DNA of 64,000 nucleotides from Psammoneis japonica (GCA_008632985.1 QPGO01000003.1:434001-498000); one strand, 5' to 3'. Numbered from the stretch's first letter, positions 15,790 through 64,000 are shown. Notes: generated by a model from the letters alone, not told the origin. Numbers and translations are program-made.

Positions 15790-17640
15790 GCTTGAACGGA
15801 CAAAAGGGATCAAAGGATCGCGATTCGTTCGACGCGAAAGTTGGTCATCCCAAAGCCCGCTCTTGCGTCTCAAGGCGAAATGTGGCAGCACTTGCAAAGC
15901 TGTCATTCTTGCGCAGTCACCACTTGACTTGTTGACAAATGACACTTCTGGCCTTTGCTGCATGTTCATCATTGCTGGATTTTGCAGAGCAAGTCCAAAG
16001 AGGAGGCTCTGCACTGACTCTTTCAGCCCAGCAGGTTGGCAACAGCACTTGACTGGGAGAATCTGCAAAAGGGCCGACAAAGCCCATGGATCAATGGCCC
16101 CATTGACAGATGAATTTCTTGTCTCATTTTTTCTTGCAAGTTCCCACCATTGAAGAAATCCAGTGTTTTGTTGATGACATTTTTTGGTGTGTGTCTCTCA
16201 CATGTTTCGATGTCCACGTCTGCAGTGTGCTGGCCTCACCCACCCAAAACTTTCATGTCTTTGCAAGTTTGGTGAGCCCCAAATTCTGTGCAAGTCTGAA
16301 AGAGTCATGAGGAGATTGCTTTTGCATGGCAATGGTGAGAACACTTGGCATGCCCCCCTTCTTCCAGCTCAACTCTGTGCATGCATGAAAAAAGAATCTT
16401 GTTCTCTCTCTGCATTTGACCTGCTTTCAAACTTTTTGAACACACAAGCCACTGTTGCAAGAGTGTCAATTGCATTGGAGGACCTGCATTTGTCCAACAA
16501 TGGCACACAATGACCCCAAATTGTGGGCATTTGATGTGGGTGGTGTTCTCTTGAGTGAGTGTCTCAGCCACATCATTGCATGGAAACATGTCTGCCACCA
16601 CAAGTTCATGTTGCTCAAAGTCCAGAGCTTTTGCAATGTCTTTTGGTGTCCCCAACAATGGACTCCAGGGACTTGTTGCTGCTGCCAACTTTCTGATGCT
16701 GCAGGTCCAAATTCAATGCTGCTTGGGATTCAGGATGAGAGCCGAGTTGCTCACAGCAGCACAAACCAAGTCTGGGTGCAAGAGGCATGCCCAGCATGCA
16801 TCCAACATGCTTGGGTGGCTCCCCCCAAAAGTTGCCCACTTTGGCTGGTCCAGGAGGATGTCTTGCTTTCTTGTCCAAATTGGTGACATCTGTGAGATGC
16901 CAACAAAATGAAAGAGAAACCAACCAAGCACAGATTGGATGATGGCAAAACCTTGTCATTGTTGGAGCCTCAACCCCTGCTGTGAAATGTTGGAAGAAAG
17001 GGCAACTCTCCTGGGTGGTGGTGTTCCAGCACACATGCCCAAACAGGTGCGGCATTGGATCCTGTCAATTGTGACAAAAAATGCAGCATTCTGTTGCAGT
17101 TGCCAGTTGATTGCTCTTTTTTGTTGTCTGACTCTTCCTTCCTTTCATGGCTGAGCTGATGCTCTTGACCGAGCACCCTGGTTGGTTCTGTTGTGCGAAA
17201 AGACATTTTGTTGATTGCAAAAACACACAACAACATCTCAACCAACCTCACACTTCATTGACAACAAAACCACACTTTGTTGCCACTCATCTTGCACAGA
17301 ACCACCACTGAAAAAACTGATGCCATTGAGTTTGTCTCTGTGACTGGCTGTCAACTTGCCACACCTTGGGCGTTGGTTGTACGTTCATTTTTGTGCGTGA
17401 TCAACTCATTCAATGGTTGACCCCATCTGTCAGGATTGCGCAAACTGTTTTTGAGTTTTTTCACACATGCAATCATTTGCCAACTTTTTAAAATTGACAT
17501 TCGTGCATTGGTGTTGGCACATGCCTCAGGGATCTGATCCCTGTCACCACAGTCGCAATGCGCCAACATGAGACATGGACTTTGGTCGAAAGCAACCCAG
17601 TGCTCAAGTTTGTTAAAAGCTGCGTGTTAGAGTTGCGCTC
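15790..17640. mobile_element. Degenerate, unclassified transposon remnant; TpA- and CpG-depleted
   Basis: No TpA seen between 15786 and 17379; strong TG/CA excess; many short Cys/His-rich, Tyr-free ORFs in all frames; same composition as the recognisable copia elements. Family not identifiable. Confidence 0.6.
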
Positions 17641-24679: not shown

Positions 24680-26850
24680 GTAAGAAAGAATTTTCTCTCA
24701 ACGCGTGTCCAGCAGAAAACACCAGCAGCAGGCAAGTTCTAGAGAAGCTGACATGCCGAGTTGGCCACGTGGCAAGCGTCGAATGAGGTCTTCCATCGCA
24801 CTGGCGGATGATGACCTCCGTGCTTTCAATTTGTTTGTGGCAACTCCCTGTTGATGCATTGATGCCAGCTGCTATGCTGTTGAGGTTGTTCAAGCACACA
24901 CGTTGCCGCAAATTGCAAGACAATCGTGTGATTCATATGTCTGAAGGGCGGCTGTTGCTTCGGGCATGAATTTCGAGCTTCTTTGCACATGCAGAGCCCG
25001 CAGAAAAAAATGTGCCAGCTGCCAGCCATCAAGAATGTCTGGTTTACACAGACAGTGCAGCAGCACAGCACCACAGGGGGCATTTGATGAACCGCTGGGA
25101 GGACTCAGACAATCAAAATGAGACATTTAATGCCACAGCATGCTGTGGTTCTGGGTGGGTGCTTGATGCAGACAACTGATGTTCTCAAGAGGGGCAAGAG
25201 TGCTGCTTTTCAAGAGACACTCACGTGAAAGACAACAGCGGTGGATGCAGCTGTTGCAATTTCATGGCTTGCCAACTGATCTGTGCCAGTCTCACCACCA
25301 ATTCCCAAACTCACTGCATGGATTGCAAATGCTGCTCCAGTGCCATTGCTCTGACTGATGTCCTGGTGCAGAAGCTAAAAAGTGAGCATGAGACCCATCT
25401 TCATGGTGAATTTACAATGCAAATTCATGACGTCACCAACAGACATTGGTTGTGTCCTTTTTGCTGTGACATTGTCTGTCTGTTCTCCAAAAACTGCATC
25501 GCACCCTGATGTTCCAACACACCCCATTGCATGAGCCGTCAATTGGCTGGCCTTGTGTGCACTCACAAAAAGAGGATGACAGTTGGAGACCATGCCATTT
25601 GTCGTCATTGCCATTGAGCGAAGGATGATCTGCTTTTTCTCATGTTGTGCAAAGCTTGCTCCCTCATGTTTCTTGTTGGCCTTGCATGCACCCAATGCCT
25701 GCAGCACCTCTTTGGCTGAATTGGGACAATGGTCACCTCCCAATGCAAACTGCTGGCGCAGGTCCTTTAAGATGCATCAACGCTCCTTTTGGGGTGCACC
25801 TTCCATGAGGAGCAGCACTTTGGCAACTTGCTCCTCTCTTTCTTCTGGGTGTCCTCAGCATCCGTGCTTGCCCATCTTCTTTTTTGGGGCAGACGACTCT
25901 GCCGCAGGACCCTCCCACCATCTCAACAACACTTGTGAGCTGACTGCAACAAAATCTTGATCTGTCTCTTCTTTGTCCTGATGAATGAGCACCACTGCTT
26001 CCAAGCCTTGACAGCCTGAACATGCAAGCAGATTCTCAACTTCAGAACTCCCAAAAAACAGCACCCTCACACCCCACTCCTTTGTGACCCTCACAAACTC
26101 CATCACTCCCTCTCAACCACATGTGACAGACAGCCTTGATTGACACTGCCCCTTCAAGTGGCACGCCTTTCCTCTCTTGTCCTCTTGATCCTTCAAACAG
26201 AGCAATGAACTCTTTTCCAGTCTGCGGTGACTCCTCTTGTCAGTTCAGCAAGCTCAAAAAGTGCCGCGATCACTCACACCAACCAAGTCTTGAGCTCCTC
26301 TTGACTTTCCAGCCAATCCCTTTTTGAATTCTGAGTTGGAATTTCATGGCTTGCTGGCCAATCTGTGCCAGTCTCACTGATCCAAGAGAACTCATTGCAT
26401 GGACTGCAAACACTGCTCTCTGAGACAGCGCCATTGGCTGCCCAGTGTGTTGTCATTCGGGCGCAAAATCCAAAAAGTGAGCACGCACATGAGACCCATC
26501 TTCATGGTTGATTTGTGAACCTTAATTCATGATGTCACCAACAGTTGTCAGCGTCCTTTTCCTGTGACATTTTTGTCTGTTGTCTGTCCTCTGAAAACCA
26601 CATTGCACCCCCACCATGTCCCAACACACAGCCAGCACCTCTCTTGAGAGAAGCTGTGAGGCAACACGACAGTGCTGCACAGAGGTAAAAACAGAAGATG
26701 CAACAGGTGACAGTGAGACACTCCTCTCCAGAGATCAAGTTGTGAGGAGATTCCTCTTTTTCAACAAATGTGACAATCACTCGGATTGCCATCGCCACGA
26801 GAGAACCAAACGGAATGTTGTGACACTCCCCAAGACGGTTGGGGGACATC
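24680..26850. mobile_element. Degenerate, unclassified transposon remnant; TpA/CpG-depleted, with an internal diverged repeat
   Basis: Composition switches abruptly after the stop codon at 24640; few TpA; 25261-25520 and 26343-26630 are diverged copies of each other. Confidence 0.6.
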
Positions 26851-27144
26851 CGTGAATCAGACTCGTGACTGATGATCGATGATTCGATTTATTTATTCGT
26901 CATTCACAAGGTCGTCTGTCATCCATCCGGCTCTCATGTTCTCGAGAAATATAAAACGACTTGGCAATGGACACGAAAACCTGAGACGGTGCGGCTGCCG
27001 AGAGTGCAACGCAAACAAGCTCTGCGAGTAGACTATATAACCTCTTCAGTGAGCCACAGCATTGGCCATAACGACGGATCTGCGATACACAACACAAAAC
27101 TTGGCAAGCAACTGCGGTGTGTGTGCGGCTAAAAAGATACACCC

Positions 27145-42690: not shown

Positions 42691-43504
42691 CATCGTGTTT
42701 ATTCTTGAATGGGTTGCTCCATCCTTTTATATATGAAGCATAGGATTTCTTACTGTTTTGCATTCCTAATACAGTAGAGAGCGACGTCTCTTCGCTTCCA
42801 ATTCCTTTTCAATGACATCTCTGCCAATGTCTAATGTTGTACCGCACAACTGAAAGATCGTGAAGTAAGATCGCGAACATGATGAGTATGATGGCTGATA
42901 CTTGCAATGTCCCGCCGTCCATAATATGAGACATCGATAGTAGCGTCACAAATCAACTGACGGTACAACTGCTGAAGGCTACTAGTTTTCCTTGACGAAG
43001 TTATGCATGGTAGAGTAAGAACTGACATATCCAAAGAGCATTACAAAGAATAAGGAATGCTATAAAAATAAAAATGTGCATCGGGGTCTTCAACAACAAG
43101 ACGACCACCCGCCGACCATGAAAGACCCCCCATGAGTTCGTATTGTACATGAGCTTCTGCCGCACTTCATTGTGTACTAGAAGTGTGGGTTAGCCGGGGG
43201 TGTTAGCACTTACAAATTAGGTTTGGTTTTCCTGTGTTGTACGCTGTCAATCGATGAGAGTATCAAAGCATGAAATATGAAGAATATGCGCATCATAACT
43301 CATTGTTTGAGGCTTGGTTGTTTGCTCTTACAGAAATTTCCTCAAATAATGTGCAAGCTTGAGAGTCAACCAAAAGTAGATAGAAGGATCCATACAGTGT
43401 CATGTATCATGGATGGTTGGAAACCGAATGTAGATATGGAAAGATGGATGTTTGGAGACCAAATGCAAATGTGCCAGGCATTTATGTTTCCTTCGCATCT
43501 CTGG

Positions 43505-45106: not shown

Positions 45107-45855
45107 CCTTTTCGTTCAGTGCCTTATTGTCAATTTTCGCTTCTCTGTGAACGTCGCATCCCAAATCGCTCGTTGACTTCTACTAGCTAGTAGGTAGAGC
45201 GAGACTGTGACTGTGGATTTTCGGTGTGTGATCTGAATCACGTCTCTGTTAAATGCAGGCACTATTCAAGTTGAGTTTTGTTTAACATTCAGAAGAATGC
45301 TCCTTATTAAGGATTTTTAGTATTGAGAATATGGAGAAAAAGTTTTTCCTATCAATGTCTTTAGGAAAATTCATTTCCAGTCCCAAACATCCAAATCTGT
45401 TAAATGGTCTGTTAAATGTTATAACCAGTTAAATAAAGTCGTCGAAGCAGTTGTCTTGACACGTCAACAGTGTCAGCAATCGTTCCAAACTGTTAAATAA
45501 AGTCGTCGAAGCAGTTGTCTTGAAGTGTCAGTAATCGCTTAAACGAGAGAAGAAAATCGTTAAATATAACTTATAAATGTTAGCATGAGATCAATCCGCG
45601 TTTTCTCGAGTCCCACATGGGCACTGTCCTCATCCCAACGCACCTCCCAAGCTGGGAGTGCTTCCAACGTGCCGGCACAGCACGGTAGACACAGGCGCAC
45701 TCTCTGCGGTGGAACCCCATGTGAAAACGTGGCACGCAAAATGGCTCTCTGCCCTTTGGCCAATGACTCATCCGTGACCTCCGACTGAAGAACCAACAGT
45801 GACCGTTGCTTGCAACAACATCATCATGTCAGCACTCTGCCTCACTTCTCGAAGC

Positions 45856-46016
45856 CTCACTTCTCAAAGAGAGCAACAAAAACAACAGCCAGACAATGGT
45901 TGGCAGAACAAGCCTTCTCCTGTCCAAGCCAGATGTCAGCAGCTGGAGAGTGAGAGAGAGGGAGCAATTGAAGCTGTCTGATGCTGTTGTTTTTGTTGCT
46001 CTTTTTGAGAAGTGAG
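45856..46016. repeat. Inverted repeat with about 40-bp arms, MITE-like
   Basis: ctcacttctcaaagagagcaacaaaaacaacagccagaca (45856-45895) is the near reverse complement of 45975-46016. Confidence 0.75.
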
Positions 46017-47644
46017 AGCACCAACGGTGTTGTTGCAAATGGTCCCTCTTGGTTCACTCAGAAGCTGCCAACATGAGCAGTTGTTGGCTGGAGGGCAGCG
46101 AGCTCTTTTGTTTTCCATGTGCCTGTGTCACGCATTGTGAGGACAGCAGCCATGTCATTGCTTTTCTGACATGTTTTTCGCAGAGCACCAGAATGTCGAC
46201 AATTGGGGCTGGAAGGCATTTGTGGGCACAGCAATTCTCATCCTCCTGTTTAAGCTGGACAGCAGCGGCTGTCCAGTGTTGTCTTCCAGTTGTGGACAGA
46301 TGCAGCTTTTGTCTTCAGCAACTGGCTCCTTTTGTGACATGCTCTGGGCTGGAATGAGGTGATGCCAAAACAACTGCAGAGCTCATTGGAGCAACCACAT
46401 CTCCTTTGCACATGGTGCAATGGCAGTGTTGCCCCCATCATTTCTCATGACCTTGTCTCACTCCCAGTGCTTGCAGATGACCTCCACCAGGTCTGCACAT
46501 TGACTCATGACCATGGCGTCAGGTCCGCGATGTCCTTGAAACCCATCACTCCCATGCAACAATGCATCAGTGTCTTCTGGCAATGAAGACATGCCTCCCA
46601 CTTCTTGTTACAGCCAAAGGAAACAGCTTGAGCAAGTCAGTCCAGTCAAAAAAGGACAAAGACCACAATTTCTGGTTCCCTTGTCCCGCTGGGTTTGTCT
46701 CAGGTTGTTGGGGTTCCCTTGTTGTGTTTGAGCAGCCAAATGTGGCTGGAGTGTAAATTGGGACAAGCCAACTTGATGTCCACCTTGTCAACTTGAGGGG
46801 GGACTGAAGAATTTACCATGTGAAATTGGCTTGCAGGAATTTGCATGTTGAACAAGGAATTTGGCAATGAGGCCATTTGATGTCAGCTCATTGGATGAGC
46901 TCACTTCTTAAAAACAGCAGCACGGTGTCACAAGCTTTCTTTCAGTTTTTCCTTGGTGCACGCCATGCCACAGGGTGTTCAATTGTGCAATTGATTCTCT
47001 GTCATCACCCACCCCAATCTCCACACAACCTCAGAGTCTTTCACATGGATGCAATCAACAAGCAAGCCAATGTTTTTCTTGACTTGGCACATCAAAACCG
47101 CAGCAATGTTTTCCTTCACCTTGATGGTGTTCAACCTTCCTGATGGCACAGCAGCCAACATCAACATGTGCTGGTGCTTGTCTCTGACACATCTTCACAC
47201 TTGCAATTGATTCCAGCTGTGAAATTTTTCACAAAACCAATCAACAACAGGTGCTGTTGTAGAACAGGGTTCCTGTTTTGGCATTGTTGAACCCGTCGAC
47301 ACCATTTTTGTGATGAAGAAGGTGGAAGAGAGGGCTGGTTTTCTTGGTTTCATGATCTTCCATGGTCAAAAGGCTCAAATCCATAAGACCTTGTGGGCAT
47401 GTCTGGGGATTGACTTAACTTGGAGAAGCCCAGCGCACCAAGTTTTGCCAAGACTCTCCTGTGGGTGATGTGCCTTGAGTGACTCAACAAAACTCTTGAC
47501 GCAAAAGGACACCTTCAACTGGCTGGAAAAATCATTTGATTGAGGGGCACTGCCCCAATGGAAGAATCTGCCAGTCCCCAGCATTTCTTGGCAGCTGCTT
47601 CAACCAATGTGCCCATTGTGATTGCACTGCTTTTGAACTTGTGT

Positions 47645-47875
47645 TTCTGCAACAAATGCACTCCAGAGAGGGGGGCAATGTCAGTTGCACAAAAGCAATG
47701 CGGGTGAACAGAGGCAAGATGCTTGAAAGTGCCAAACAGCAAGCTGCACTTCTGCTTGCATGACAAATGCACTTCAGAGATTGGGGCAATGTCAGTTGCC
47801 ATGAAAGCAATGCAGATGAACAGAGGCAGCACCTTTGAGGCAGTTCCAGATGCTTGAAAGTGCAAACAGCAAGTG
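47645..47875. repeat. Diverged tandem duplication of about 115 bp
   Basis: acaaatgcact.cagaga..ggggcaatgtcagttgc...tgaacagaggca...gatgcttgaaagtgc occurs twice. Confidence 0.75.
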
Positions 47876-50707
47876 TCAAAGTGCAAACAAACCAAAACAA
47901 GTTCAAGACAGTGGCAACTGCAAAGCAACCAAAAAAGAAGCATGAGAAGCGACCAGAAAAAAGCAAGTGCGGTGTCTTGCATGAGCCACAACACACACTC
48001 AATCGGCTTGCTGAGTTCCAAATGAGAGAATGCAAAGAGATGGTGTTGTTTGCAATGGCGCAGCAACTGTGCAAAGCTGCAATTGCATTGTGACAACAAT
48101 GCTGTGACTTTCAAATGAAAGGAACAAATGGTTTCACACAACTGCAAGGGCAAACAGGGGGTTGCAGAGCAGTGACAGTGGTGTGCTGTGTTGTGGCTGG
48201 TGATGTGTGTTGGGTTTTTTGACGTGGATGGCATGTGCTCATAGAAGTTAGTGATGTTCTGCACATTGCCAGAACAACGTTGTAAATGCCAACTGATGCT
48301 GTTCTTCCTGTGACAAAATGTGCACCTCAGTTGTTGGAGATGTGCGTTGTTGTCACAAATGCATTGCAACATCAAAATGATCAATGTTTGCCAAAAACCA
48401 AAAAGTGTGAGCTCTGTCGGGTAGAGCCAAAAGTGCCTGGCACTGACAACTGCATGGAAAATCTCACGTGATGAAAAGCTCATTGCCTGGGGCTGGAAAA
48501 CAGTCAAGCAATTGCATTTTAGAGAGAGTCTGTCTTGTGTCCATTGGTGTCATGGAGTTGTTCTTCATGTCATCTGTTTTCCAGGGTTGTTTTGTCCACT
48601 GAAGGTGAGCCCAGCTGAGTTTAATTGCAGTTGCTTGCTTGGCACACACCTGAGGACATTGTGTCTTGCTTGAGCTCCTGCATTGAAAGCACTGAGTCCT
48701 TGGTTGACTCATGTGGGATCAAGTGCTGGGACACAAGTTTGTGATCAGAGTCCCCGCTTGACAGCTCATTTGCAAAAAATGCTTTCCAGCTGTTGGCAAG
48801 TGACATTCTCTGCAGCAGCCCATTGATTTGAAAGACCAACATGACTCCAAGGCTGCAATGCACAGTGCAGATCATCACAGCATCATCAACAATGCCCAAC
48901 ATTGTTGAGAGAATGACAGTTGACTTTGGCGCACAAAATTGAATTCACCTGAATGACAAAAAGGCCTGGCTCTTTCCATCCACTTGTCCAACAATTTTGC
49001 GCACAGGTGCACAAGCTGCTCTGACTCTCCAAAGAGTGCTGCATGCTGTGAAATTAAAAACTGTTGCCAAGTTTCTTTGTCAAAGCTTCATTTGGAGTGG
49101 AGGCAGTGAACTGTTGCCTTCTTTTTGGATTGGTGCTTGTTGGCTGGCTCTTCTTTCCTGCTCCACTGTGTGGCACAGGCTGTGCTGGCAAACATGGCAG
49201 GTCTGCCAGCTGGCACAGCCCATCTGCCTGCATCTGTTTTGGCTGCAGCTCCACTGGTGATGGCCACTCCCCTGTTCCTGCCATTGTTGCTCTGGCCATT
49301 CCTTCTTCAGATGATGGCAAGATTTGTGCACAAGCAAGCCAGGGTGGGTCCCTGAAATGCACGCCACCAGCCACAAAGGCAGCGGACCTGGAGACACTCC
49401 AGGACATGACACACTGACTCTCAAAAAGCAGTCAAAATGATCATTGAAGACAGAGAAAGAAAACAAAGAAGAGTCTGTGGTGGATGTCCCTGACTGTGCT
49501 TGCAAAACAAAGAAGAAGGCAGAAATGGTGAAGAGGAGTCAAGTGATTGAGCCTGTGGGGTGGACAAAAATTGGGGTTGAACAATCTGAATGTGCACAAA
49601 ACAACTGCAGCTTGCTTTTGCACTTGTCTGGGATGCAAGCTGGGATGAAGTTGGTTCTCTGGAGAGTGTCTTTTGCTGTGTGGCAGGCTCATTCATGCTG
49701 TTGTTGTGTGCAGTGGTTGGAAGCGGTCTGTGCCAGACACTGCAGAGAGATGATGGCCATTTGAAATTTGCAGAGAGCACTTGCCACTCACAGAATGATT
49801 GTTCCAAGTGACAATTGTTCACGAACCTTGGACATGCAGTGGTGGGTTTGGGTCACCTGGTTTGACAGCCATGATGTGACCAACATGTCTTTCCAAATCA
49901 TCTGCCACAGTCTCCAACTCTTCTCACTTTCCAAGCCTTGGACTGCATGTCCATGGTGTGGATTTGCACCACAAATCAAAAGTGCCATTTCATCAGCATC
50001 AATCAATGGAAGCATTGGGGCCTCAGCAAAGCTGCCCAGATGCGGAAGGCAAAAAAAGCAGCGCCACTTCAAAATGTTGGTTTCGGTGAGTGCCTGGCTC
50101 ACAACAGCAGAGCATCTCTTCCTCATGTGCTCAAGGTCTTTCAAAGCCACACTGATGTCACTCTCTGAAAACACACATCCATCATTGGAGTTCACTGTGA
50201 GGTGAACAATGCACACATTCGCCCATGCTTCTGGGTGGCCCAGTTTGAAAAGTGCCAAAATTGGTCGGCAGTGACTGCTCAGTTTTCTCATGCCTTTGCT
50301 GTTGCCAGTCATTCAGAGCAGTGCAATCTGCTCCTCATTCCATTGCTCAATGCTTTGAATCACATGTGCTGGGACAGGCAAGTCATTGTTGCAGTGTTCC
50401 ACCAGCATTTGCAGCTGGCTCAGCAGGTGTCCTCGAGATCTGCTGCTGCTGGGATGAGGGTGTTGGTTCGTGTCCCTGGGAACCTGCTCTGCACGTTGGA
50501 CTCTATGTTGACACCTCCATTCTGCAATGGCATCTTCACGAAAGTTCACTGTGCAGTGGGTTGCGCGACATGAGCGGTGGGACGCATCACACGACCGCCA
50601 TTGTGACCGTCAGAGATGTGTTACTAGAATTGACGCGGTGGAATGACGCGCTGCAGCGCCAGCGAGTTTGTATCATACGGGAGACACGTACCCTACAATT
50701 GTACTCC

Positions 50708-54545: not shown

Positions 54546-54676
54546 CCGAATGCACGACGAACCGAAACAAGGCGAGACGCTCACTGGCAAGCAACAGCAG
54601 CAAAAATTCAAGACCTTGTTTTGCTGTTAATTGATGGCTTCTTAATGGCAGCAGAGTGAGGTTGAGTTGAGTTCCC

Positions 54677-54972
54677 GGCATTGCAAGAGAGACTCGGGCG
54701 TGTTGAAAAAAAGACGTTTGGCTCCTCCTGACATGGCCTGAAGAATGGCTCTCTGTGTGGAAGATCTCACTGTCATCAGATGCTTGTCTTTGACTTTCAT
54801 TTCACTTTTTGGAGTGAATCATTTGGTTTTTCATTTGGCATCAGCAGGCATGTGTCATTGTGCAAGTTTGCGGTTTGCGCCCGAGCCAGTGCAGGCTGCC
54901 AAGGCAAGTGTGGCGAGCATCGCAGAAGGCCCTGCAGAGCCCCCTTTTGATGACATTGACCTGTTGATTCAA
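54677..54972 (+). repeat. 5' LTR (left boundary approximate)
   Basis: Aligns with 59152-59468 (ggcattgcaaga...ctgacatgg.ctgaagaatg.ctctctgtgtgga.gatctcac...catttggcatcagcagg...tgacattgac). Confidence 0.75.
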
Positions 54973-56532
54973 TGCTCACTCCAAAGAGTCCTTTCTGCTG
55001 TGTTTGCATGGAAGAGACCAAGGTGTGGCAAAGGCAACAAGGGTTGCAGGTTTTCAGCTGGAAAAAGAACGCGTGCACTGGCAAGAAGCCACTCGAGGAT
55101 GCCAAGGAAAGAACAACCTGATGTGTGCAAAAGGAGCATGATGGCCAGGGCACACACTTGGCAAGGTCTCTGCAAGACATGCATCAAGTGTGAGGGTTTT
55201 GACTCCAAGAAGCCCACCTTGTTGGCAACATCAGAAAAAGGTGGCACCTGCTGCCTCAACAGCTCTGATGGAGCTGCAGGAAAAAGAACACAAAGACAAG
55301 CAGCTGGGGTGCGAGCATGAAGTGGAGCATCATGAGCACTGTGACAAGGTGAGGAAGTTCACAAAAACAAGGCTGCCACATTTGCCAGGATCTTGGGTGG
55401 CTGCTGCACCAAGCAAATGAAACAGAGAGTCCAAGCTGATCTCCCAGTTCTTTCTCCAGCATCAGGGGTGACCCAACCAAGCTGTTGCTGAAACTGATCC
55501 ATCCACTCACCCACACTCAATGAAAGGTTGACACCCACTCCACACACTTCCTTGCACGGACATTGTGTGGGAGAGCACCGCCAAAAACAGCTGTCATCAG
55601 TCTGTCCACTGATCTGCACGTGAATGTCAACTTTTCAGGAAATCAATTGAATGCTGTCTGGTCAATGGTGTTTTGATTCACACATCAGTGAAGGCCAGTG
55701 CCATTGATCAGATGGCATTTCAACTCAGCCCTCAAAAAGCCGTTGGCTCCAACCACTCTCTTGCATGACATTGTGCACATTTCTGCATGATTTTGTGTTT
55801 TTCCTTGTGCAAAATGTTGATTGTGACTGATGCAACACTTTTGAATGACTCCCAGCAGAAGCTGCATGGCATGGGCTGCAACTGGTCAATGAGAAACCAG
55901 AAATGAGCATGAGCCAAGCCAACATGGACACCAAGAGTGATGAGATCATCCTCCACAATGGCCATGCCCTTGGCATGATGGTGGCAACCCAGAGACCAGT
56001 GCACATTGTGTGACCAGCCAAGATCAAGATTGGTCCACCCATGGATGTGCCAGATGAAGACTGCACCATGCCCAGATGGGGTGACATGAAGCTTGGAATG
56101 GAGAGTGCAATGGCAAGTGGCAAGTGCCCTCAGTGTGAGTGGCAGGCAAGTCATGGCTGCCAGACAGAAAGACTGGCAAACAAGTCACGGTGTTCAGAGG
56201 AAACAAACTCAAGCTGTGTGCCTCTTTGCACCAAGCCAGAGATTCTTCAACCATGCAAAAGAGCTCTAAGACAGCAACTGAGTGTGCAGTCAGGCTGTGC
56301 TGCCAGGCTGGTGCACCCAGTGTGAGGGATTTAAAGCAACTCTTGTGTTCAAACCAGGTGAAGAACTTGTCTGTTGCACCTGAAGATGTGGACAGAATGG
56401 CGGACATTTGGGGTTCACTGATGGATGTGTTGAAGGGCAAGACCAACTGTGCACATCATTCTCACAAGGTGGAGTGACACCACAGCCACCCCACCTGAGA
56501 CATGCAATGTGCCGATTCTGTTCATTCGTTCA

Positions 56533-56563
<31 letters not shown>

Positions 56564-57752
56564 TGTGGTCCTCTCTGTGTTGACATCATGCAAGTGTGTG
56601 GAGCAAAGATGCTGCACATGACAGATGAGACAATCAAGCACCAAGTGAGTGTGAGGCTGAAGTCCAAGAAGCACATCAATGCACCTGACTCACAATGCTG
56701 CATTGTTCAAGATTGAATTTGTTGAATGCAACCCCAAGTTCAAGGCCATGCTGACAGAATTGGCTGGTGGTGTGAACCCAGAGCTGTTGCCCATGAATGC
56801 CAGCAATCATGTTCCTGCAGCAGAGTGGAGCATTGAGACTGTTAAAGAGCAAACTCAGGCCACCACACACCACCCACCATGCAAGATGATGCCCAAGTTC
56901 ATGTGCAAGCATGCTGTGATTAAAAACACTTTTGTGTTGAATGTGTGCTCACACACAAGGAGAGGATCTCCAATGCCTGCAATCCGCACACTGTTGTGCA
57001 ACAAAGGAAACCTCAACTGTGGCAAGCAATTCAAGTTTGACTTCAGGAAGTTTGTCCTGTCTCATGTTGAGAACCACTCCACAAACACAATGGGCACACC
57101 ACATGGGATTGAAAGCATGCGTCTGTGGACATGCTTCAAATCACCCAAGGACAGTTGCTGCGCTGTGAACCTGAACATGGGGAAGCTTCTGAACTCCCAC
57201 AAGTCTGCTGCAGTGCCCCTGACTGACATGCACATCCAAGTGGTCAAGAAGAGGGCCAGTGCCCAAGGCATCTAGAAAGATTTTGAATTCATGGGGAAAT
57301 GCAGAGACAACCTGCATGATTCTGATTGGACCGCAGGAGTGGATGATGACAAAAGTGATGAAAAAGATGAAAACGAACACAAAGAAAATGGAGATGATGC
57401 CATGAATGTTGTCACAGATGACGAGTCAGAAGATGAAGACTGTGAAGATGAAGTGGGCTCAAATGAAGAGTGCAAAGAAGCAAGCAACATCCCAGCCAAT
57501 GGAACACATGATCTTGGCCAACACCATCATGAGAGCTGTGCAATGACCACAATTCTGTGGACTGGGTTGTTCATGGAATGCCAGAGGGGCATCTCATCAA
57601 CAAGAACATCCTGTGCCAGGACAACAAGAGCACCATGCCCTCAGAGACCAACAGGTGCAGGAGTGCTGGCAAGTGCTCCAGAGCACTCAATGTTTGGCAT
57701 TTCTCAGTTGCTGACCAAGTTGAGAAGGGCAGCCTGAGAGTGCAGCACCACC

Positions 57753-58020
57753 TTCATCGTGGGACCCCCCACAAATGCAGAGGGGAGCTCTCCTGCAGAG
57801 GTCTGCACAAAATTTTGCATGTGGTGCTGAAACATGCAGCCTGCATGCACAAAACAGGCTCTGTTTCTGTGCATGACAAAAATTCAAAAAATTCCCAGTT
57901 TGTGAGACAAATCTGGTGCAAAACCTGCACAAACAGTTCCCATGCATTCACACAGAACTCTGCACATTTCTGGGTTGCTGGGTTGCGGGTCCCTCTGCAT
58001 TTGTGGGGTCCCATGTTGAA
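57753..58020. mobile_element. MITE-like element inserted in the copia RNase H region
   Basis: Terminal inverted repeats ttcatcgtgggaccccccacaaatgcagaggg and ccctctgcatttgtggggtcccatgttgaa; the insert interrupts the RNase H motif between VQH and NNVLGDFMTK. Confidence 0.8.
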
Positions 58021-59128
58021 CCTGGCCAACAATGTGCTTGGAGACTTCATGACCAAGCTGCTGGTGCAGGGCAAGAAGTTTTGAAAGTTTGAACAAGCCG
58101 CTGTTGTGGGCTGCTGGGTTCAAGCATGACAGGAGTGTGCCCCACTGTCTGCAATGTCAGATGACAACTTCAACACATGTGGGTGAAGATCCCTGCAATC
58201 TGGAAGATGAGTTGAACCTGGGAGTTCAGCCAATCACAATTTGTGGCATCAGAAGTGCCACAATCCCAGAGCAGTTGTCAGCCATGAATGACGTCCCCAC
58301 AACAAGGGTGGGCTTTGCAGTGAGGCCAAGGAATCATCTGATGTGACTGCACAGTGGTGGCCATGGGACCATTGGGGCAAGACCATGCTGCTGAAGGAAT
58401 GAATCTTGAGTCTGTCATGGAAGTGGCAGGGAATGGTGCCAACATGCCATGCCCATTGAGCGCAGAGGTGTTTGCCCGTTGAGTGCAGAGATGTTGAGGA
58501 AACAGCTTCAGAGCATGCATTTCGGCAGTCATGCAATGGCTCAATGGCAGAAAGAGTCAGGTGGTGTGGTCAACCCACACATCTGCTGTGGTGTTTTGGG
58601 TTTGCACCAGATGGTGCTTGATGTTGAGGTCAGAAGAGAGAGCAGTGAATTTGGGTGCTGGCGCCATGAGGTTCAGCCTGTCTCACTGGAACAGCGCGCA
58701 CTTTCTTGGATGAAAAGGTGCTGGCTTGTGCTGGGTGTGCACGAGTGTGCCAAGCAACATGTGTCCGCTGCTGCAACAACGTTTTCCCTGCACAACAATG
58801 AAGGTGCATCACTCAGCACTGGACTGCAAGGTGAGGAAACTCACCTGGCCAAGGAATGCTGGCAAGTTGCTGGGTGCTGCACCAGGACACAAGGCAAGTT
58901 GTGCAATCGCGGCATCCAAGAACACAACGACGCTGGCCATCTGTCAATGACAGGCACATCACCAGGTCTGGGGGGCTGAGCTGGAGTTGACCCTGGACAG
59001 ACAAGACATTGGTTGGTTGAGGGCCAATCATCCCAAAGATGAAAGAAGCCATTGCAGGCTGCCAGAGGGGAGTGCTTGCCAGTGCTGTCATTCCTGACTT
59101 TTGAAAACATTGATGTGAGTTGCAGGAG

Positions 59129-59468
59129 TGTGCGGGAGCATCCAGATCTGGGGCATTGCAAGAAGAGACGTGGGTGTCTTGAAGAAAAGACATTTGGCTC
59201 CTGACATGGTCTGAAGAATGACTCTCTGTGTGGAGGATCTCACCATCATCTTGTTTGCTTTTGGGCTTTCATCTCACTCTTTGGAATGAATCATTTGGTT
59301 TGTCATTTGGCATCAGCAGGTTCACCCTGCTGTTTTGCAAGTTTGTGGTTTGCCAAGATGCCTGTGCAACCCACAACCAACACAGACTGCCAAGGCAAGC
59401 ATGACAAGCATCACAGGAAGCTCAACAGGACTTCCTTTTGGTCGTGACATTGACTTGCTGGTTCAACA
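59129..59468 (+). repeat. 3' LTR
   Basis: Follows the caggagtg PPT-like motif, ends in ...ttcaaCA, and is a direct repeat of 54677-54972. Confidence 0.75.
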
Positions 59469-59571
59469 GCTCCGCAGCATGCCAACACAGTGCAGTGCTG
59501 CATGTGGCATGTGACAGGATTTAAACAAGATTGACCAACTCGATTAAATCCGACCCATCAACCTGAAAAAT

Positions 59572-59635
59572 TGCGATGCCCAGGAATCGAACCTAGGTCC
59601 TCTAATGACCGGTTACCGACTAAACCATTTACCGC
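59572..59635 (-). pseudogene. tRNA-like Pol III element (tRNA-Gly-like ends, shortened anticodon arm)
   Basis: Minus strand reads GCGGTAAATGGTTTAGTCGGTAACCGGTCATTAGAGGACCTAGGTTCGATTCCTGGGCATCGCA then ATTTTT. It has an A box (TGGTTTAGTCGG), a B box (GGTTCGATTCC), a T stem and a partial acceptor stem, but is only 64 nt. Confidence 0.65.
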
Positions 59636-60174
59636 GTTCTTCAAACTGACAGGCTTTTTGCACATGGTCACACATGTTTCAGCCAGAGAGTGACACACAC
59701 CTTTAATTCTTCTTGGAATTCTGTCACTCCCCATGTGTCACGAAGCTGTCTGACGTTCCTTTCTTTGGACAATGACACTTCTCACAGCTCCCCTTCTACC
59801 TGGGCCACATGTTTCTGCACGTGTCATGACCTCCCCGGCGAGCTGACAATTGGGCGGCCATTCCGGCCTCTGCACCCCCAACAAGAGCACCATGTGCATC
59901 GTCGGTCTGTCTCACCGCAGCCTCTCCTCAGTTTTAGAGTCACCTTGAAGGAGCACACACACCTGGGTTCAAATCATCAACGGTCGTCGCGCGCGATGTG
60001 GTTTGCTTTCAAGCCACAAGGCTCACAAGAATGATGACAGCAGCCCGATTGCACCGACTTGCACGTCTTTCGGCTCCTGCAACGGTCTCTGAGCGGAGAC
60101 TCATCTGCCACTTAGACAGCAGCAAGGAGTCATTGTTTGAATTCTTGCCATTTGCCTTCATTTTCTGTCAGATT

Positions 60175-60307
60175 GACGTTTCCATTGGCCACCGGTGAGG
60201 CTGGGACCGCGGGTGCAGGCAGCACCAGCCTGAAGGATGTCAATGTCGCTGTCAATGTCGTAGAACACATCGTCGGACGGTTCCTCGGAGCAGACGTCGT
60301 GTGCGCA
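60175..60307 (-). repeat. 133-bp duplicate of gag segment 63529-63661 fused in frame to the truncated RT
   Basis: CAHDVCS.EPSDDVF.DIDSDIDILQA.AACTRGPSLTG.QWKR occurs twice in the ORF, 3354 bp apart. Confidence 0.93.
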
Positions 60308-63300
60308 TTCGGCGCGGCAGGGGAAGAAGCCTTCAGCTCGCAGGCAGTCGGTGAAGTGCTCGTGCCAGCGGAGACCGGAGCTGCGCAGTCCATGCAGGGC
60401 CTTGTGGATGACAAGGATGTGTCCTTCGAGTTTGCCAAATTCGGGTCCGGCTGCAATGTAAAGCTTCTCCTTGGTGGTGGCTTCAAGGTGGGCATTGCCA
60501 ATGTTGGTGGCCCATGTCTCCAACTCGTTGAGTTCGGCCAGGAAAATCATCAGCCGAAGGCCACGGAGGGAGACTGCTCCGGAGTGGACACTGTCGACAG
60601 GTGCGTCCGTGAGGTGCCCGTCGGCTGCGAGTCGTGCCTTGTGGCAACCGTCGTGTTTCACGTCGCACACTGGGTGCACTCGGATCTTCTTGTGTCCCGC
60701 AGGAGGAGTGGAAGACTCGAAGGGCCCGCAGTCATGGAAGACTTTGCATTCGTCGAGTTGGCCCATCTCGAGATTAGTTGCGTCTCCCCATTTGCGGTTG
60801 CCATTGCGTTCGTCCAGTGACATGGCGTGTTTGTAGTTCCGGGGAACTTCGCATCCACACTTGCAGCGAGGTGCAGTGCGGAAGGAGTGAAGCTTGGCTT
60901 GGCTGGCCATGCGAAATGGCTTCTTTTGGCGCCTCGCGATGGTGCGGAACCGCTTCCAGCCATCCGTGTCGAGGAGTCTGTTCTCTCGTGCATAGATGGC
61001 GCAGGTGACGGGGTTGTCCTTGGCGATGATGGCAAGAGGCTCGGACGTGATCTCCCCACTTTCCCATTCAAGCATGATGTTGTAGCTTGAGCCTTTCCAG
61101 GTTGGGTCGTGAGGCTTCAGAGGTCCTTCGTGTGACACGATGCATCGAAATTTCCAAATGGCAGTGTCTTCGTCTTCTTGCTCAATGTGATTCATGATGT
61201 CATTGTGGGCAAGGACTTCCTCGCATTCGTCGTTGTTGACAGAGCAGACAAACTCAGTGAGCTCGGGATTGCCGTTCACTTTCCATTCGTGGTCTTCAAC
61301 GGCCTTGACGATGCGAGCTCTGTGGTGTTGTCCGTCCTCTTGTGGCTGCATGAGGAAGGTGCGTCCAATGATGTCTTGCAGATCAAAAACTGGCATCTTG
61401 GGTGTCCTGATCTCCCCATCAGGAGAATCGACGGGGTTGTCGTCATGGCGAGATTTGATGATGGGTTCAGGTGGCTCCCCATCAGGAGGATCAAGACGCA
61501 GGTTTCGAATGGCAGGATCGGTGGCAGCGGAGCGGACGTTGGACCGGCAGAGGATCTTCTGAGTCTCGTCAGAGAGAATCTTGAAGGTCATCTGGTGGCC
61601 GACGTGCTCAGCAATGCCAACGAAGCGTCCACGCAACTCACGGGATTCGGACGGCCAATCGGAGTCATCGAGGTGGAAGCACACGGGTTCCCACCAGTGA
61701 AAGCGAAGCAATGGGCTGATGTCCGGGGTGGAGCCAGTGAGAGTCTCGAGGGGCGTGCGCCAGTGGAGACATGGGGATGCTGCATGGTTGAGTGTGAAGC
61801 ACACATGCATGAGCGCCAGCAGCCATGTGTGGGCGGGTGAACCAAAACGATCCATGACAGTGTTCGCCATGCGCTTCACGGTCTGGTGTCGACGCTCGGC
61901 AAAGTTTTGGTGTTGCTGGTGAGGCTCACTTTGCCAGCTGGAGATGAAGAGGGTGCGTAGGATCCCGAGCACTTTGTTGCTGATCTCAACTTGAGCACGG
62001 TCGCTGATGAGTTTGGATGGGGCACCACGCTCACGGATCTGATCCTCGAGTGTGTTGACAAACTCTTTGTCCGTCTTGGTGCCGCAGACGTCAGTGACGG
62101 TAGACTCGGTGCCAACAAACAGTTGGGCGCTGGTGCAACCAGAGTCGATGGCCGGGGTGTCGGCACAAACGGTGTCAGTGGCGACAGGCTTGTTGCGGCG
62201 GTGCACATTAAGGGCGGGGTTGGGGGATTTGCAGGCCTTCCTAAGGTGTGTGCCGGCGGGCATGCGGGCGTGCTGCGTGGTGCAGTCAAAAGTACGATGG
62301 ACCGCATCGGCAGGTGGGAAGCCAAAGTGAGGCCGAAGAGACTCGAAGGGGGGGTCCTTGGGCTGTACAGTGCGCTCCGGGGGCGGAACGTCGTCGCCCT
62401 TGGGGTCAATCGCGTGTAGATGACACTCACAGAACACGTCGTCGTTCGGAATGAGGTGATCATCGAGGGCGGACGCATGATCGGCAGACAAGGAAGCGGA
62501 CATGATGGTCTCGTTGACAACGACACGATGACGGCAGTTGCCGCACTCGTCAAATGGGTTGGCAGTGGGATCGTCCTGCAGGTCAGAGATCGCGTCGTGC
62601 CACTGGTCGTCATCAGTGACAGAGTGATCGAGGACGGAAGGGTCCCATGTGTCATCACCAGTGAGGATGACATGGGGCAGGGTGTCCCATTCGGCGTCAG
62701 TGTAAGGTCGCATGGCAACATGAGGCAGGCCGGCCTTGATGTCAATGGGGATGACACAGCCATCAGGAGTGGCAATGCGTTGCAAGCCGTTGGGCACCTT
62801 GACAGAGCGATCGTTGACATCCTGTTTGTGCCATTTGAGCTGGCCGCAGGAATGGATGGTCTTGCCCTTGCCCGTGCACGCGCATTGATGGAGGATGGCG
62901 ATGACGGGACCACGCTGGGTCTCAATGACGGCACCAGCGGTGACAATGGGGATGTCCACCAATTGATGGTCGTCAATGCCCTGGACGTCGACTTGGCGAG
63001 AGGTGCGTGCAATGACGCGAACGTCGTCGCCAGCAATGCCGCCGTTGGCACCACGATCGACTAGAGCACCAGTGCGTGTGGAGCGATGAGCAGAGGCAGA
63101 GCAAATGACATTGTGGTTGTTGACGCGACGGCAAGTGCGGCCGTCAAGTTCCATGTCATCGGCAGAAGCTGGCGGGGCAGAGTGAGCGGCGGATGGCCCT
63201 GGTCGACCAGCATTGGGGGCTTGGTTGGGAGACAACAGACGTTGCAGATCACCGGGTGGCAGTGGCTTGCACTTGGTGAGGTGCGCCAGGATGGGATCAT

Positions 63301-64000
63301 CTGAAGTGGCACCCACATTTGGAGCGGGGTCACCAGAGTCAGCAGGAGTCGTGTTGGACAAGTTGACATCACCGTCACTCCCAAGGTGTTGATCGTGAAG
63401 GTTGGCTGCAACAGACTCATGGCAGTTGCTGGCTCGCGGGTTGTGGGGAGGCAGACGAGAATGCTCAAGGATGATCGCCTTGGAGGAATGGGGCAACGAA
63501 TCCCAGATCCGTTGGTGGTCGGGAGGGAGACGTTTCCATTGGTCACCGGTGAGGCTGGGACCGCGGGTGCAGGCAGCATTGGCCTGAAGGATGTCAATGT
63601 CGCTGTCAATGTCGCAGAACACATCGTCGGATGGTTCCTTGGAGCAGACGTCGTGTGCGCACATGGCGCGTCGGGGAGCTCGAGGTGTCGTCTTGGGTTG
63701 AAACGTGCTGTCGCATTGAGCTGCCGCGGAGAGGAGCAAGCCACAGCATTGATCGCATGTGAGGCTCTTGCCACTCTGCGTACGATGCTGATCAGCTTGG
63801 TTCTTGACAGCACGGAGTTCCTCAACAGGGTGTGCGGCATTCTCGAGCATGACGCGCTTCTGTCCTTCAGAGAAGTGGTCACTGGCCGGGATGAGTGCCT
63901 CGTGCTTGCGCAACTGATCTTGCCAATGAAGGATGAACCCGTGGGTCGGACCTTTCCAAGTGCCATCACCAAGACGTGCGGTGGTGGGGTGCGTTGGCAA
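60175..64000 (-). mobile_element. CoDi-type Ty1/copia gag-pol (gag, protease, integrase, chromo-like module, truncated RT); hypermutated; 5' part runs off the right edge
   Basis: ALVDRGANGG (protease), VATDTV...KLISDRAQVE...QNFAERR (integrase DDE), KGSSYNIMLEWESGEITSEPL, and KKIRVH..DVKHDG.HKARL...KAL.GLRSSG (RT). RT is cut off after EGFFPCRAE. Confidence 0.95.

What the first reader, a model, noticed from the sequence alone, without database searches (positions are those of the whole stretch)
60158..64000. Candidate 'reverse-RIP' genome defence: systematic TpA -> TpG/CpA hypermutation of a copia retrotransposon
Seen: the 1280-aa gag-pol ORF is open but has only 6 Tyr. Against recalled CoDi/copia consensus, conserved positions differ in ways a single change in a TA dinucleotide explains. 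GYKKIRVHLVYD reads GHKKIRVHPVCD (codons cac, cca, tgc from tac, cta, tac). RLVADG reads RLAADG (gca from gta). SVYSGVV reads SVHSGAV, GNAYLEA reads GNAHLEA, KALYGL reads KALHGL, YKYGYEVP reads CKCGCEVP and HQYAY reads HQCAC. Both A->G and T->C occur on the coding strand, so adenines on both strands are affected; sense-RNA editing alone cannot explain that. Established: fungal RIP runs the other way (CpA->TpA) and creates stops. Inference: a TE-targeted A:T->G:C mutator that inactivates elements by missense, for example a TadA/ADAR-like DNA adenine deaminase with 5'-T preference, or polymerase-eta-type WA->WG synthesis coupled to repair of methylated chromatin. I know no described pathway for this in diatoms but cannot search the literature.
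Basis: partly seen in the sequence, partly recalled or inferred. Interest (0 to 1): 0.93.

Follow-up and report, generated by a model that had tools for sequence, protein, structure and literature searches.

The report
TpA-erasing hypermutation of transposon copies
A copia-type retrotransposon copy and four older repeat relics in this probable diatom have had nearly every TA dinucleotide turned into TG or CA, a transposon-restricted mutation pattern that runs opposite to fungal RIP and that my literature searches did not find described.

Summary
The 1280-aa ORF has 6 Tyr. At 30 columns where at least 80% of 60 homologs have Tyr it keeps 3; 13 are Cys and 8 are His. Of 48 single-step changes at conserved columns, 27 are TA>TG/CA, 9 are CpG transitions, 4 are other transitions and 8 are transversions. 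About 80% of TA sites are hit, against about 6% of CpG sites and 0.6% of other sites.

TA observed/expected (o/e) is 0.09. It is 0.49-1.02 in 80 related elements from metagenomes and 0.56 in the rest of the window. Both strands are hit, in strand-coordinated patches (p about 0.002).

Four older repeat blocks have TA o/e 0-0.06 and also CpG o/e 0.16-0.29. Their TG+CA surplus equals the missing TA+CG. Contigs built from reads reproduce these blocks at full single-copy depth, so this is not an assembly artefact.

Best reading: a host-driven, transposon-restricted A:T>G:C hypermutation specific to TpA. The enzyme, the timing (integrated DNA or reverse-transcription intermediates) and a defence role are untested. 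Eight literature searches found no description.

The parts
60158..64000 (-). Open but dead gag-pol ORF (1280 aa) of a copia-type retrotransposon copy. It runs off the window at its 5' side. TA o/e is 0.09, CG o/e 0.89 and GC 0.58.
   Evidence: tblastn of homolog P0001 residues 252-1462 onto 64000-60308 gives 57.5% identity.
60314..60703 (-). Truncated RVT_2 (copia-type reverse transcriptase) domain. Profile positions 10-147 of 244 are present, and homology breaks at 60308.
   Evidence: Pfam PF07727, E 6.3e-09, aa 1100-1229. Other copies read on past 60308, shown by a loose end table 7.
60175..60322 (-). 148-bp second copy of the gag segment 63529-63676, joined to the broken RT. The two copies are 92% identical and their differences include one TA/CA and three CG/TG sites.
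   Evidence: A joint 60305>63664 is seen in 3 contigs of run X1 (table 5).
59700..60157 (.). TA-poor, CpG-rich stretch continuous with the element: 3 TA in about 450 bp. It is part of the high-copy repeat.
   Evidence: Summed depth rises from 4,327 to 178,620 across it (table 2).
54677..59466 (.). Old LTR-type element relic with no recognisable ORF. TA is 5 observed against 299 expected, CG 46 against 295, and TG and CA are 1.8-2.0 times expectation. Its direct terminal repeats are 54677-54972 and 59152-59466, 75-80% identical.
   Evidence: X1 contigs match at single-copy depth.
45700..50500 (.). Old repeat relic. TA is 15 observed against 325 expected, CG 49 against 276, and TG and CA are both 1.83 times expectation.
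   Evidence: X1 contigs of 901, 1310 and 1842 nt match with 1, 2 and 0 differences (table 8).
25000..26890 (.). Old repeat relic with a 71% identical direct repeat pair (25253-25522 and 26335-26629). TA is 7 observed against 123 expected, CG 32 against 111.
15790..17370 (.). Old repeat relic. TA is 0 observed against 109 expected, CG 18 against 89.

Best explanation
A host process in this genome converts T:A pairs at TpA steps into C:G pairs (TA>TG or TA>CA), specifically inside transposable-element DNA and almost to saturation. In the copia-type copy it replaced conserved Tyr (TAY) by Cys or His, GTA-Val by GCA-Ala and CTA-Leu by CCA-Pro. It removed TAA and TAG stops from all six frames, so the ORF stays open while the protein is dead.

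Shown:
- The changes are specific to TpA.
- They affect both strands.
- They come in strand-coordinated patches.
- They are restricted to repeats with sharp borders.
- They are much faster than CpG decay in the young copy.
- In old relics TA and CG together were converted into TG and CA with mass balance.

Inferred:
- The process is enzymatic.
- It is most likely deamination of adenine (A>I, read as G) with a strict 5'-T preference on single-stranded or flipped-out DNA of either strand.
- Ordinary decay of methylated CpG then adds CG>TG/CA.

Unresolved: whether the enzyme acts on integrated repeats (RIP-like) or on the RNA and minus-strand cDNA during reverse transcription (APOBEC3-like, giving copies that are dead on arrival).
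For: Specificity at conserved columns (aa 1231 or lower). Of 57 differing columns, 48 need one base change: 15 TA>TG, 12 TA>CA, 7 CG>CA, 2 CG>TG, 4 other A>G, 8 transversions, and 0 other T>C, C>T or G>A. Detectable transition opportunities still unchanged are 10 TA bases, 133 CG bases and 685 others. That gives about 80%, 6% and 0.6% hit.

Not a family trait. All 80 related loci have TA o/e 0.49-1.02 and GC 0.40-0.53, and 240 homologs have at least 2.0% Tyr.

Restricted to repeats. All 33 of 128 bins with TA o/e below 0.2 lie in five blocks. Block borders fall within about 50 bp of the LTR ends of the 54677-59466 element. The blocks have raised read-contig depth.

Conversion, not mere absence. 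Missing TA+CG against surplus TG+CA is 129/122, 138/127, 386/384, 403/416 and 127/137 in the five blocks. There are no microsatellites in the blocks.

Strand coordination. The 33 polarised sites form 9 runs where 17.4 are expected; permutation p = 0.0019.

Other copies. At 7 displayed places other copies carry TA (18-73% of depth) where the window has TG or CA. At conserved Tyr 33 the window has His (CAC) while all other-copy depth has the Cys state.

Real at read level. Eight X1 contigs of 0.9-1.8 kb match the old blocks and their flanks with 0-2 differences, at depth 58-72, the same as unique DNA.
Against: - No enzyme, modification or gene repertoire could be examined, because no genome is held for this window.
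- The read data come from one sample and one study. They may be the data the assembly was made from, so they are not independent.
- Only 40 of 390 variant places were displayed, so shares among copies are a partial view.
- Some variants are shared by about 70% of the family depth (62381, 62384, 62393). The window copy differs from the abundant variant by only about 3-6% (table 8). Part of the TA loss may therefore be inherited from an already mutated ancestor that kept amplifying, which a pure kill-on-sight mechanism does not predict.
- TG/CA order in the old blocks shows no strand clustering (z from -0.23 to 0.99).
- A two-copy 78% identical duplication (43.3-45.6 kb and 50.8-54.5 kb) is not saturated. 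Its pyrimidine transitions before A (0.113) are only 2-3 times those before C or T.
- Ancestral states are inferred from proteins only 46-58% identical.
Confidence: 0.55

Rival explanations
1. By-product of a symmetric base modification at TpA in silenced repeats, not a dedicated mutator. One form would be N6-methyladenine at TpA that decays to hypoxanthine. Another would be thymine oxidised by a TET/JBP-type dioxygenase to 5hmU/5fU, which mispairs with G. Either would parallel 5mCpG decay and would explain why both palindromic YpR steps end up as TG/CA.
For: TA and CG are both self-complementary steps, and both are erased in the same blocks with mass balance. In dinoflagellates a TET/JBP homolog makes 5hmU that is enriched on transposable elements and helps silence them (PMC11572971, passages read). 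That 5-formyluracil mispairs with G is recalled, not checked here.
Against: TA loss (about 80%) far outruns CpG loss (about 6%) in the young copy, which is fast for passive decay. Strand-coordinated patches fit a processive enzyme better. No modification data are available. No TpA-specific eukaryotic modification is known to me (recalled).
Confidence: 0.2
2. Lineage effect. A non-autonomous or already dead subfamily kept amplifying, by trans-mobilisation or by segmental or tandem duplication. It accumulated a reverse-transcriptase or replication error bias at TpA over many cycles, free of selection on its proteins.
For: The family is very abundant: summed depth is 60,000-178,000 against about 60 for unique DNA. 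Some variants are shared by about 70% of the depth, and at Tyr 33 all other copies share the Cys state. About ten depth-equivalents of a rearrangement joint (60305>63664) exist.
Against: Four unrelated old repeat blocks show the same TA loss. No polymerase with strict TpA specificity is known to me (recalled). TG and CA derivatives both occur at the same ancestral site (62251/62252, and Tyr 33).
Confidence: 0.08
3. Context-biased error-prone repair in methylated heterochromatin. This could be a Y-family polymerase, or a T:G-mismatch glycosylase or endonuclease that 'corrects' T to C, as very-short-patch repair depletes CTAG in E. coli.
For: CpG decay, and hence probable methylation, accompanies the signature. 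The VSP analogy is recalled, not checked here.
Against: WA-type polymerase signatures should also hit AA. Only 2 AA>AG changes were seen, and 4 non-TA A>G among about 200 opportunities. T:G repair in a CpG context would make CG from TG rather than CA from TA.
Confidence: 0.07
4. Sequencing or assembly artefact. A modified base at TpA in repeats is misread, or polishing errors are responsible.
For: The only runs that hold the sequence come from one sample and may be the assembly's own data.
Against: Contigs built from reads reproduce the interleaved TG/CA mosaic of the old blocks with 0-2 differences per 0.9-1.8 kb, at full rather than halved single-copy depth. LTR pairs differ by indels and by 14-21 transversions as well, as real old DNA does.
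Confidence: 0.03
5. Selection against TA or UA in the element, for example to avoid a UA-cutting RNase or to stabilise the RNA.
For: TA is mildly under-represented everywhere: o/e 0.56 in the rest of the window.
Against: 23 of the 26 conserved-Tyr columns inside the homologous region (aa 1231 or lower) were lost, 21 of them to Cys or His. That destroys function, so it cannot be selected in an autonomous element. Non-coding relics reach TA o/e 0-0.06.
Confidence: 0.02

Closest known systems
Fungal repeat-induced point mutation (RIP; RID/DIM-2 dependent, Neurospora and other ascomycetes)
   Same: It targets repeats or transposons, causes transitions only, is specific to a dinucleotide, approaches saturation, has sharp borders at the repeat, and inactivates elements permanently. 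Strand-coordinated runs are seen here; that RIP also shows them is recalled. Diatoms carry DNMT4 enzymes related to RID, of unknown function (PMC9998398, passages).
   Different: The direction is opposite. RIP turns CpA into TpA (C:G>T:A), which raises TpA and AT content and creates stops. Here TpA is destroyed (T:A>C:G), GC rises and stops vanish. The chemistry cannot be cytosine deamination. Dependence on duplication and on a sexual stage was not tested.
APOBEC3-type editing of retroviruses and retrotransposons (fossil G>A hypermutated copies)
   Same: A context-specific nucleic-acid deaminase could explain dense, regionally clustered transitions that are confined to the element and fixed in genomic copies that arrive dead.
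   Different: APOBEC3 deaminates cytosine on minus-strand cDNA only, giving G>A on the plus strand. Here the change is at A:T pairs and on both strands (15 TA>TG, 12 TA>CA).
ADAR hyper-editing, and TadA/ADAT2 or fungal TAD2/TAD3 A-to-I editing
   Same: A>I>G chemistry. TadA-type enzymes act on A preceded by U (recalled), which matches the 5'-T requirement seen here.
   Different: These enzymes act on RNA. ADAR tolerates 5'-A as well as 5'-U (recalled), whereas AA is spared here. RNA editing cannot give the T>C half on the coding strand. No natural eukaryotic DNA adenine deaminase is known to me.
Decay of methylated CpG (5mC>T)
   Same: This is present here too. At 17 of 33 displayed variant places the window copy has TG or CA where 85-100% of other-copy depth has CG. 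Old blocks have CpG o/e 0.16-0.29.
   Different: It cannot remove TpA. In the young copy it lags far behind TA loss (about 6% against 80%).
5hmU marking of transposable elements in dinoflagellates (TET/JBP homologs)
   Same: A thymine modification aimed at transposable elements in another SAR lineage (PMC11572971, passages).
   Different: It was described as a silencing mark. The passages I read report no T>C mutational footprint and no TpA erasure.

Membership tests
Ty1/copia-type LTR retrotransposon (diatom CoDi-like lineage) | Copia-type reverse transcriptase (Pfam RVT_2) | tested here: met
   PF07727, E 6.3e-09, aa 1100-1229, truncated at profile position 147 of 244. Intact homologs P0001 and P0005 score E 1e-29 and 4e-31.
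Ty1/copia-type LTR retrotransposon (diatom CoDi-like lineage) | Full-length gag-pol homology to known members, with diatom relatives | tested here: met
   789 homologs, the best 58% identical over 96% of the query, typically 1850-1900 aa. One shorter hit is named from Cylindrotheca closterium and two are MMETSP transcripts. The label 'CoDi' itself is recalled and comes from no call.
Ty1/copia-type LTR retrotransposon (diatom CoDi-like lineage) | Flanking long terminal repeats and a complete pol (RNase H end) | tested here: not met
   The copy runs off the window at its 5' side and is broken in the RT at 60308, where a 148-bp gag fragment is joined. It is a rearranged fragment, not a whole element.
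Fungal RIP | C:G>T:A transitions, preferentially CpA>TpA, raising the TpA/ApT index | tested here: not met
   The direction is the reverse. TA o/e is 0.00-0.10 and TG/CA are in surplus. 27 TA>TG/CA changes were found and no non-CpG C>T or G>A at conserved columns.
Fungal RIP | Acts on duplicated DNA in situ, before meiosis, and depends on RID | not testable with these tools
   No genome is held, and the window holds no young LTR pair. The old LTR pair is saturated.
APOBEC3-type cDNA editing | G>A on the plus strand only, in GG/GA context | tested here: not met
   No non-CpG G>A at conserved columns. The changes are at A:T pairs and on both strands.
ADAR-type dsRNA hyper-editing fixed by reverse transcription | A>G on the sense strand only, with 5' neighbour U or A tolerated | tested here: not met
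   12 of 27 TA changes are T>C on the sense strand. Only 2 A>G changes have a 5'-A. The ADAR neighbour preference is recalled.
DNA adenine deaminase with 5'-T preference (hypothetical, TadA-like) | A deaminase-fold gene, and inosine in repeat DNA or in reverse-transcription intermediates | not testable with these tools
   No genome, no modification data and no RNA run were available.

The most novel reading that the evidence does not exclude
This organism has a dedicated genome-defence mutator that is the chemical mirror image of RIP. An enzyme acting on DNA, or on reverse-transcription intermediates, erases TpA steps in transposable elements through adenine deamination with a 5'-T rule, or through an equivalent attack on the thymine of TpA. 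It kills elements by missense while leaving their ORFs open. Together with decay of methylated CpG it drives both palindromic YpR steps to TG/CA.
Probability: 0.35. Interest if true: 0.92.

Novelty: new variant of a known kind. Interest (0 to 1): 0.8.

Why it matters
Every known transposon-directed hypermutation system (RIP, APOBEC3) deaminates cytosine and drives sequences towards A:T. A natural process that drives transposon DNA from A:T to G:C at one dinucleotide would be a new class of mutator.

- It could point to a natural DNA adenine deaminase, or to a new TpA-directed DNA modification. Such an enzyme would interest base-editing work.
- It would change how repeats are found and dated in such genomes. 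Hypermutated elements keep long open frames in all six frames, look GC-rich, and their LTR divergence overstates their age.
- It gives a simple genome-wide marker (TA o/e below 0.2 with a TG/CA surplus) for mapping silenced DNA in this organism and its relatives.

Tried and rejected
- **Whole genome.** Not held, so no family-wide alignment, no gene repertoire and no genome-wide TA map.
- **Earlier findings of this scan.** Nothing turned up.
- **RNA.** No RNA holder was listed among the sequencing runs, so expression could not be examined.
- **Other copies in the protein collection.** The near-length and the shorter-length searches gave nothing closer than 58% and 64% identity. Copies from the same genome could not be fetched that way.
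- **Other TA-poor blocks and this family.** tblastn with 10 homologs hit only the element itself.
- **Coding capacity of the old blocks.** 34 ORFs of at least 110 aa gave no Pfam match better than E 0.016. A repeat search found no terminal inverted repeats that would class them as DNA transposons. Whether non-retro elements are affected stays open.
- **Strand clustering in old blocks.** A runs test on all TG/CA gave none.
- **Timing from the old LTR pair.** There were 5 TG/CA discordant against 47 concordant sites. The ancestral TA and CG counts are unknown, so the test is inconclusive.
- **Host identity.** An Atlas look-up of the GST-like gene gave mixed photosynthetic taxa, Bacillariophyta among them. 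This is not decisive.
- **Microsatellites.** Rejected as a cause of the TG/CA excess.
- **Literature.** Eight full-text searches found no report of TpA-directed hypermutation of transposable elements. In PMC2806351 a term search for transition, RIP, dinucleotide, mutation, degenerate and hypermut returned 3 irrelevant passages. Supplements were not opened.
Full report
**What is at the coordinates.** The minus strand of 60158-64000 carries an open frame of 1280 codons that runs off the window. Pfam finds only a truncated copia-type reverse transcriptase: RVT_2, E 6.3e-09, aa 1100-1229. A search of the large protein collection gave 789 homologs. The best is 58% identical over 96% of the query, and most are 1850-1900 aa long. 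tblastn places homolog P0001 residues 252-1462 on 64000-60308. The copy therefore lacks its 5' part, which lies outside the window, and is broken in the RT at 60308. There it is joined to a 148-bp second copy of its own gag segment: 60175-60322 against 63529-63676, 92% identical. One shorter homolog is named from the diatom Cylindrotheca closterium and two are MMETSP transcripts. The host genes in the window are long and intron-poor: VPS13, exportin-5, a CBM96 protein, an FtsJ methyltransferase and a GST. A diatom host is likely but was not established, and the runs are coded.

**Check of the observation.** In a MAFFT alignment with the 60 best homologs, the query compares with them as follows:
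- Tyr 0.47% against 3.80% (range 2.59-4.37)
- Cys 3.52% against 1.04%
- His 5.62% against 3.55%
- Pro 7.34% against 4.70%
- Ala 8.36% against 6.53%

Of 502 columns conserved in at least 80% of the homologs, 30 are Tyr. The query keeps Tyr in 3 and has Cys in 13, His in 8, Phe in 3, Asp in 2 and Gly in 1. Four of these lie in the non-homologous tail. It keeps 424 of the other 472 columns. None of the 240 homologs fetched has less than 2.0% Tyr.

**Substitution spectrum.** I restricted the analysis to aa 1231 or lower. There, 57 conserved columns differ and 48 can be explained by one base change:
- 15 TA>TG
- 12 TA>CA
- 7 CG>CA
- 2 CG>TG
- 4 A>G in other contexts
- 8 transversions
- no other T>C, C>T or G>A

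The detectable (non-synonymous) transition opportunities that remain unchanged are 10 bases in TA, 133 in CG and 685 elsewhere. So about 80% of TA sites were hit, against about 6% of CpG sites and 0.6% of the rest. A>G and T>C on the coding strand are balanced (15:12). AA is spared.

**Composition and extent.** The ORF has 16 TA where 169 are expected (o/e 0.09), CG o/e 0.89 and GC 0.58. The 46.6 kb of the window outside the blocks has TA 0.56, CG 0.97 and TG and CA both 1.19. All 80 related elements fetched from metagenomes have TA o/e 0.49-1.02 and GC 0.40-0.53. The state is therefore not a trait of the lineage.

In 500-bp bins, 33 of 128 have TA o/e below 0.2, all in five blocks, and the lowest of the other 95 bins is 0.28. 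The four other blocks are 15790-17370, 25000-26890, 45700-50500 and 54677-59466. They have TA o/e 0.00-0.06 and also CG o/e 0.16-0.29, with TG and CA at 1.6-2.0. They are unrelated to the copia family, have no recognisable coding capacity and contain no microsatellites. One of them is bounded by direct repeats that are 75-80% identical (54677-54972 and 59152-59466), so it is an old LTR-type element. TA resumes within about 50 bp of those ends.

Against the window's background, the missing TA+CG and the surplus TG+CA balance in every block: 129/122, 138/127, 386/384, 403/416 and 127/137. This is what direct conversion of TA and CG into TG and CA predicts.

**Is it real?** One sample (four coded runs, one study) holds the sequence, and it may be the assembly's own data. 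Its contigs, built from the reads, were laid on 44001-64000. Unique DNA has depth 58-65. Eight contigs of 0.9-1.8 kb cover the old blocks and their flanks with 0-2 differences at depth 58-72. A misread modified base would give strand-pure CA-only and TG-only read families at half depth. It would not give the interleaved mosaic at full depth. The old LTR pairs also differ by indels and by 14-21 transversions. I therefore reject an artefact for the old blocks. For the high-copy element itself the check is weaker, because its reads cannot be told apart from those of its relatives.

**What the other copies say.** The element's family is very abundant. Summed depth is 60,000-178,000 and 7,991 contigs were laid. 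The differences from the window are mostly transitions: 310 of 382 places in X1. Only 40 of 390 variant places were displayed, and 33 of them lie in the element. They fall into these groups:
- At 17 places the window has TG or CA where 85-100% of the depth has CG. This is private CpG decay, so this copy is probably methylated.
- At 7 places the window has TG or CA where 18-73% of the depth has TA.
- At 62251/62252 at least 22% of the depth must be TA, and a TG form (the window's own) and forms with C at the first base (CA or CG, 40% of depth) occur as well.
- At conserved Tyr 33 the window has His (CAC) while all other depth has the Cys state.
- At 3 places the window keeps CG where 70-72% of the depth has TG or CA.
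- At 3 places the change is of another kind.

So TA-bearing copies exist, and the same ancestral TA has gone both ways. Some variants, however, are shared by large fractions of the family. The window differs from the abundant variant by only about 3-6% (table 8). Part of the TA loss is therefore probably shared by descent. This is the main open point against a simple model in which every copy is killed independently.

**Mechanistic clues.**
- Both strands are hit, so editing of the sense RNA alone is excluded.
- The polarity is patchy. Ordered along the ORF, the 27 protein-inferred sites plus 6 read-inferred sites read CAx4, TGx8, CA, TGx2, CAx2, TGx4, CA, TGx4, CAx7. That is 9 runs where 17.4 are expected, permutation p = 0.0019 (p = 0.0028 with the 27 sites alone). 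Such strand coordination fits an enzyme working along one exposed strand, or different single-stranded intermediates. It is not seen in the saturated old blocks.
- The 16 surviving TAs are not random. None has a 5' A (26% in relatives), 11 have a 3' C (34% in relatives) and 1 has a 3' T (30% in relatives). TA in A/T-rich surroundings therefore goes first.
- TA loss precedes CpG loss. The young copy is TA-poor but CpG-rich. The old ones have lost both, and TA loss is the more complete in every block.
- A two-copy duplication of 78% identity (43.3-45.6 kb and 50.8-54.5 kb) is not saturated. It shows only a 2-3-fold excess of pyrimidine transitions before A. The strong effect is therefore specific to the transposon blocks.

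**Interpretation.** The best-supported reading is a host-driven, transposon-restricted hypermutation that changes T:A to C:G at TpA. Chemically the simplest route is deamination of adenine to inosine with a strict 5'-T rule on either DNA strand. TadA-type enzymes have that neighbour rule on RNA (recalled). An attack on the thymine of TpA would leave the same footprint and cannot be separated by sequence. A TET/JBP-type oxidation is one example. Dinoflagellates use 5hmU on transposable elements (PMC11572971, passages).

Timing is unresolved. Action on integrated repeats would make this a mirror image of RIP. Diatoms carry RID-related DNMT4 enzymes of unknown function (PMC9998398, passages). Action on genomic RNA plus minus-strand cDNA would make it an adenine analogue of APOBEC3 restriction. 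The second option fits the regional polarity and the coexistence of TA-bearing and TA-less copies. The old LTR pair cannot decide between them. CpG decay by methylation then completes the TG/CA end state.

**Comparison and novelty.** The pattern fails the defining tests of RIP (direction), of APOBEC3 (base and strand) and of ADAR hyper-editing (strand and neighbour rule). It works like these systems in being a context-specific, element-restricted hypermutation. Eight full-text searches and a term search in the founding paper on diatom copia elements (PMC2806351) found no description of it. Supplements were not read. I rate it a new variant of a known kind, transposon-directed hypermutation, with new chemistry and direction.

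**Limits.** The evidence rests on one 64-kb window. Ancestral states are inferred from proteins 46-58% identical. The read data come from a single sample and were only partly displayed. No gene repertoire, modification data or expression data were available.

Noticed in passing
43255-45614 and 50802-54515: A duplication of about 2.2 kb, 78% identical in BLAST segments, that includes unannotated ORFs (358 aa and 836 aa, no Pfam match). Each copy is followed directly by a TA/CG-depleted repeat block. The duplicates themselves are only mildly TG/CA-enriched.
   Followed up: partly
15785-15912 and 45687-45850: At the left edge of two old blocks, a stretch of 130-165 bp is already free of TA but still dense in CpG (12 and 8 CG). 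TA loss reaches further than CpG loss there. This could be an unmethylated element end.
   Followed up: no
60305/63664 joint and 60174, 60308 loose ends: Contigs built from reads show about ten depth-equivalents of a joint that links the broken RT to the gag segment. Many copies read on past 60308 into the rest of the RT. The rearranged form in the window is itself repeated, possibly in tandem.
   Followed up: partly
62101-62417: A patch of about 320 bp inside the element keeps 6 of its 16 surviving TAs (TA o/e 0.31 in that bin). It lies in a stretch where the polarity of the changes is mixed.
   Followed up: no
5558-15431 (-): A VPS13-like gene is read as two adjacent long ORFs (2010 and 1274 aa) separated by 16 bases. 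This could be a short intron, a frameshift or a stop; it was not examined.
   Followed up: no
43618-43888: A tandem repeat of a 57-bp unit, 4.8 copies, 97% matches, rich in ATCGTC-type triplets, inside the first copy of the duplication.
   Followed up: no
L025, L061, L005, L048, L024 (metagenome loci): Among the 80 related elements, those with the strongest CpG depletion (o/e 0.18-0.24) also have the lowest TA (0.49-0.52) and high TG/CA (1.4-1.6). A weak form of the same coupling may exist in other hosts.
   Followed up: no
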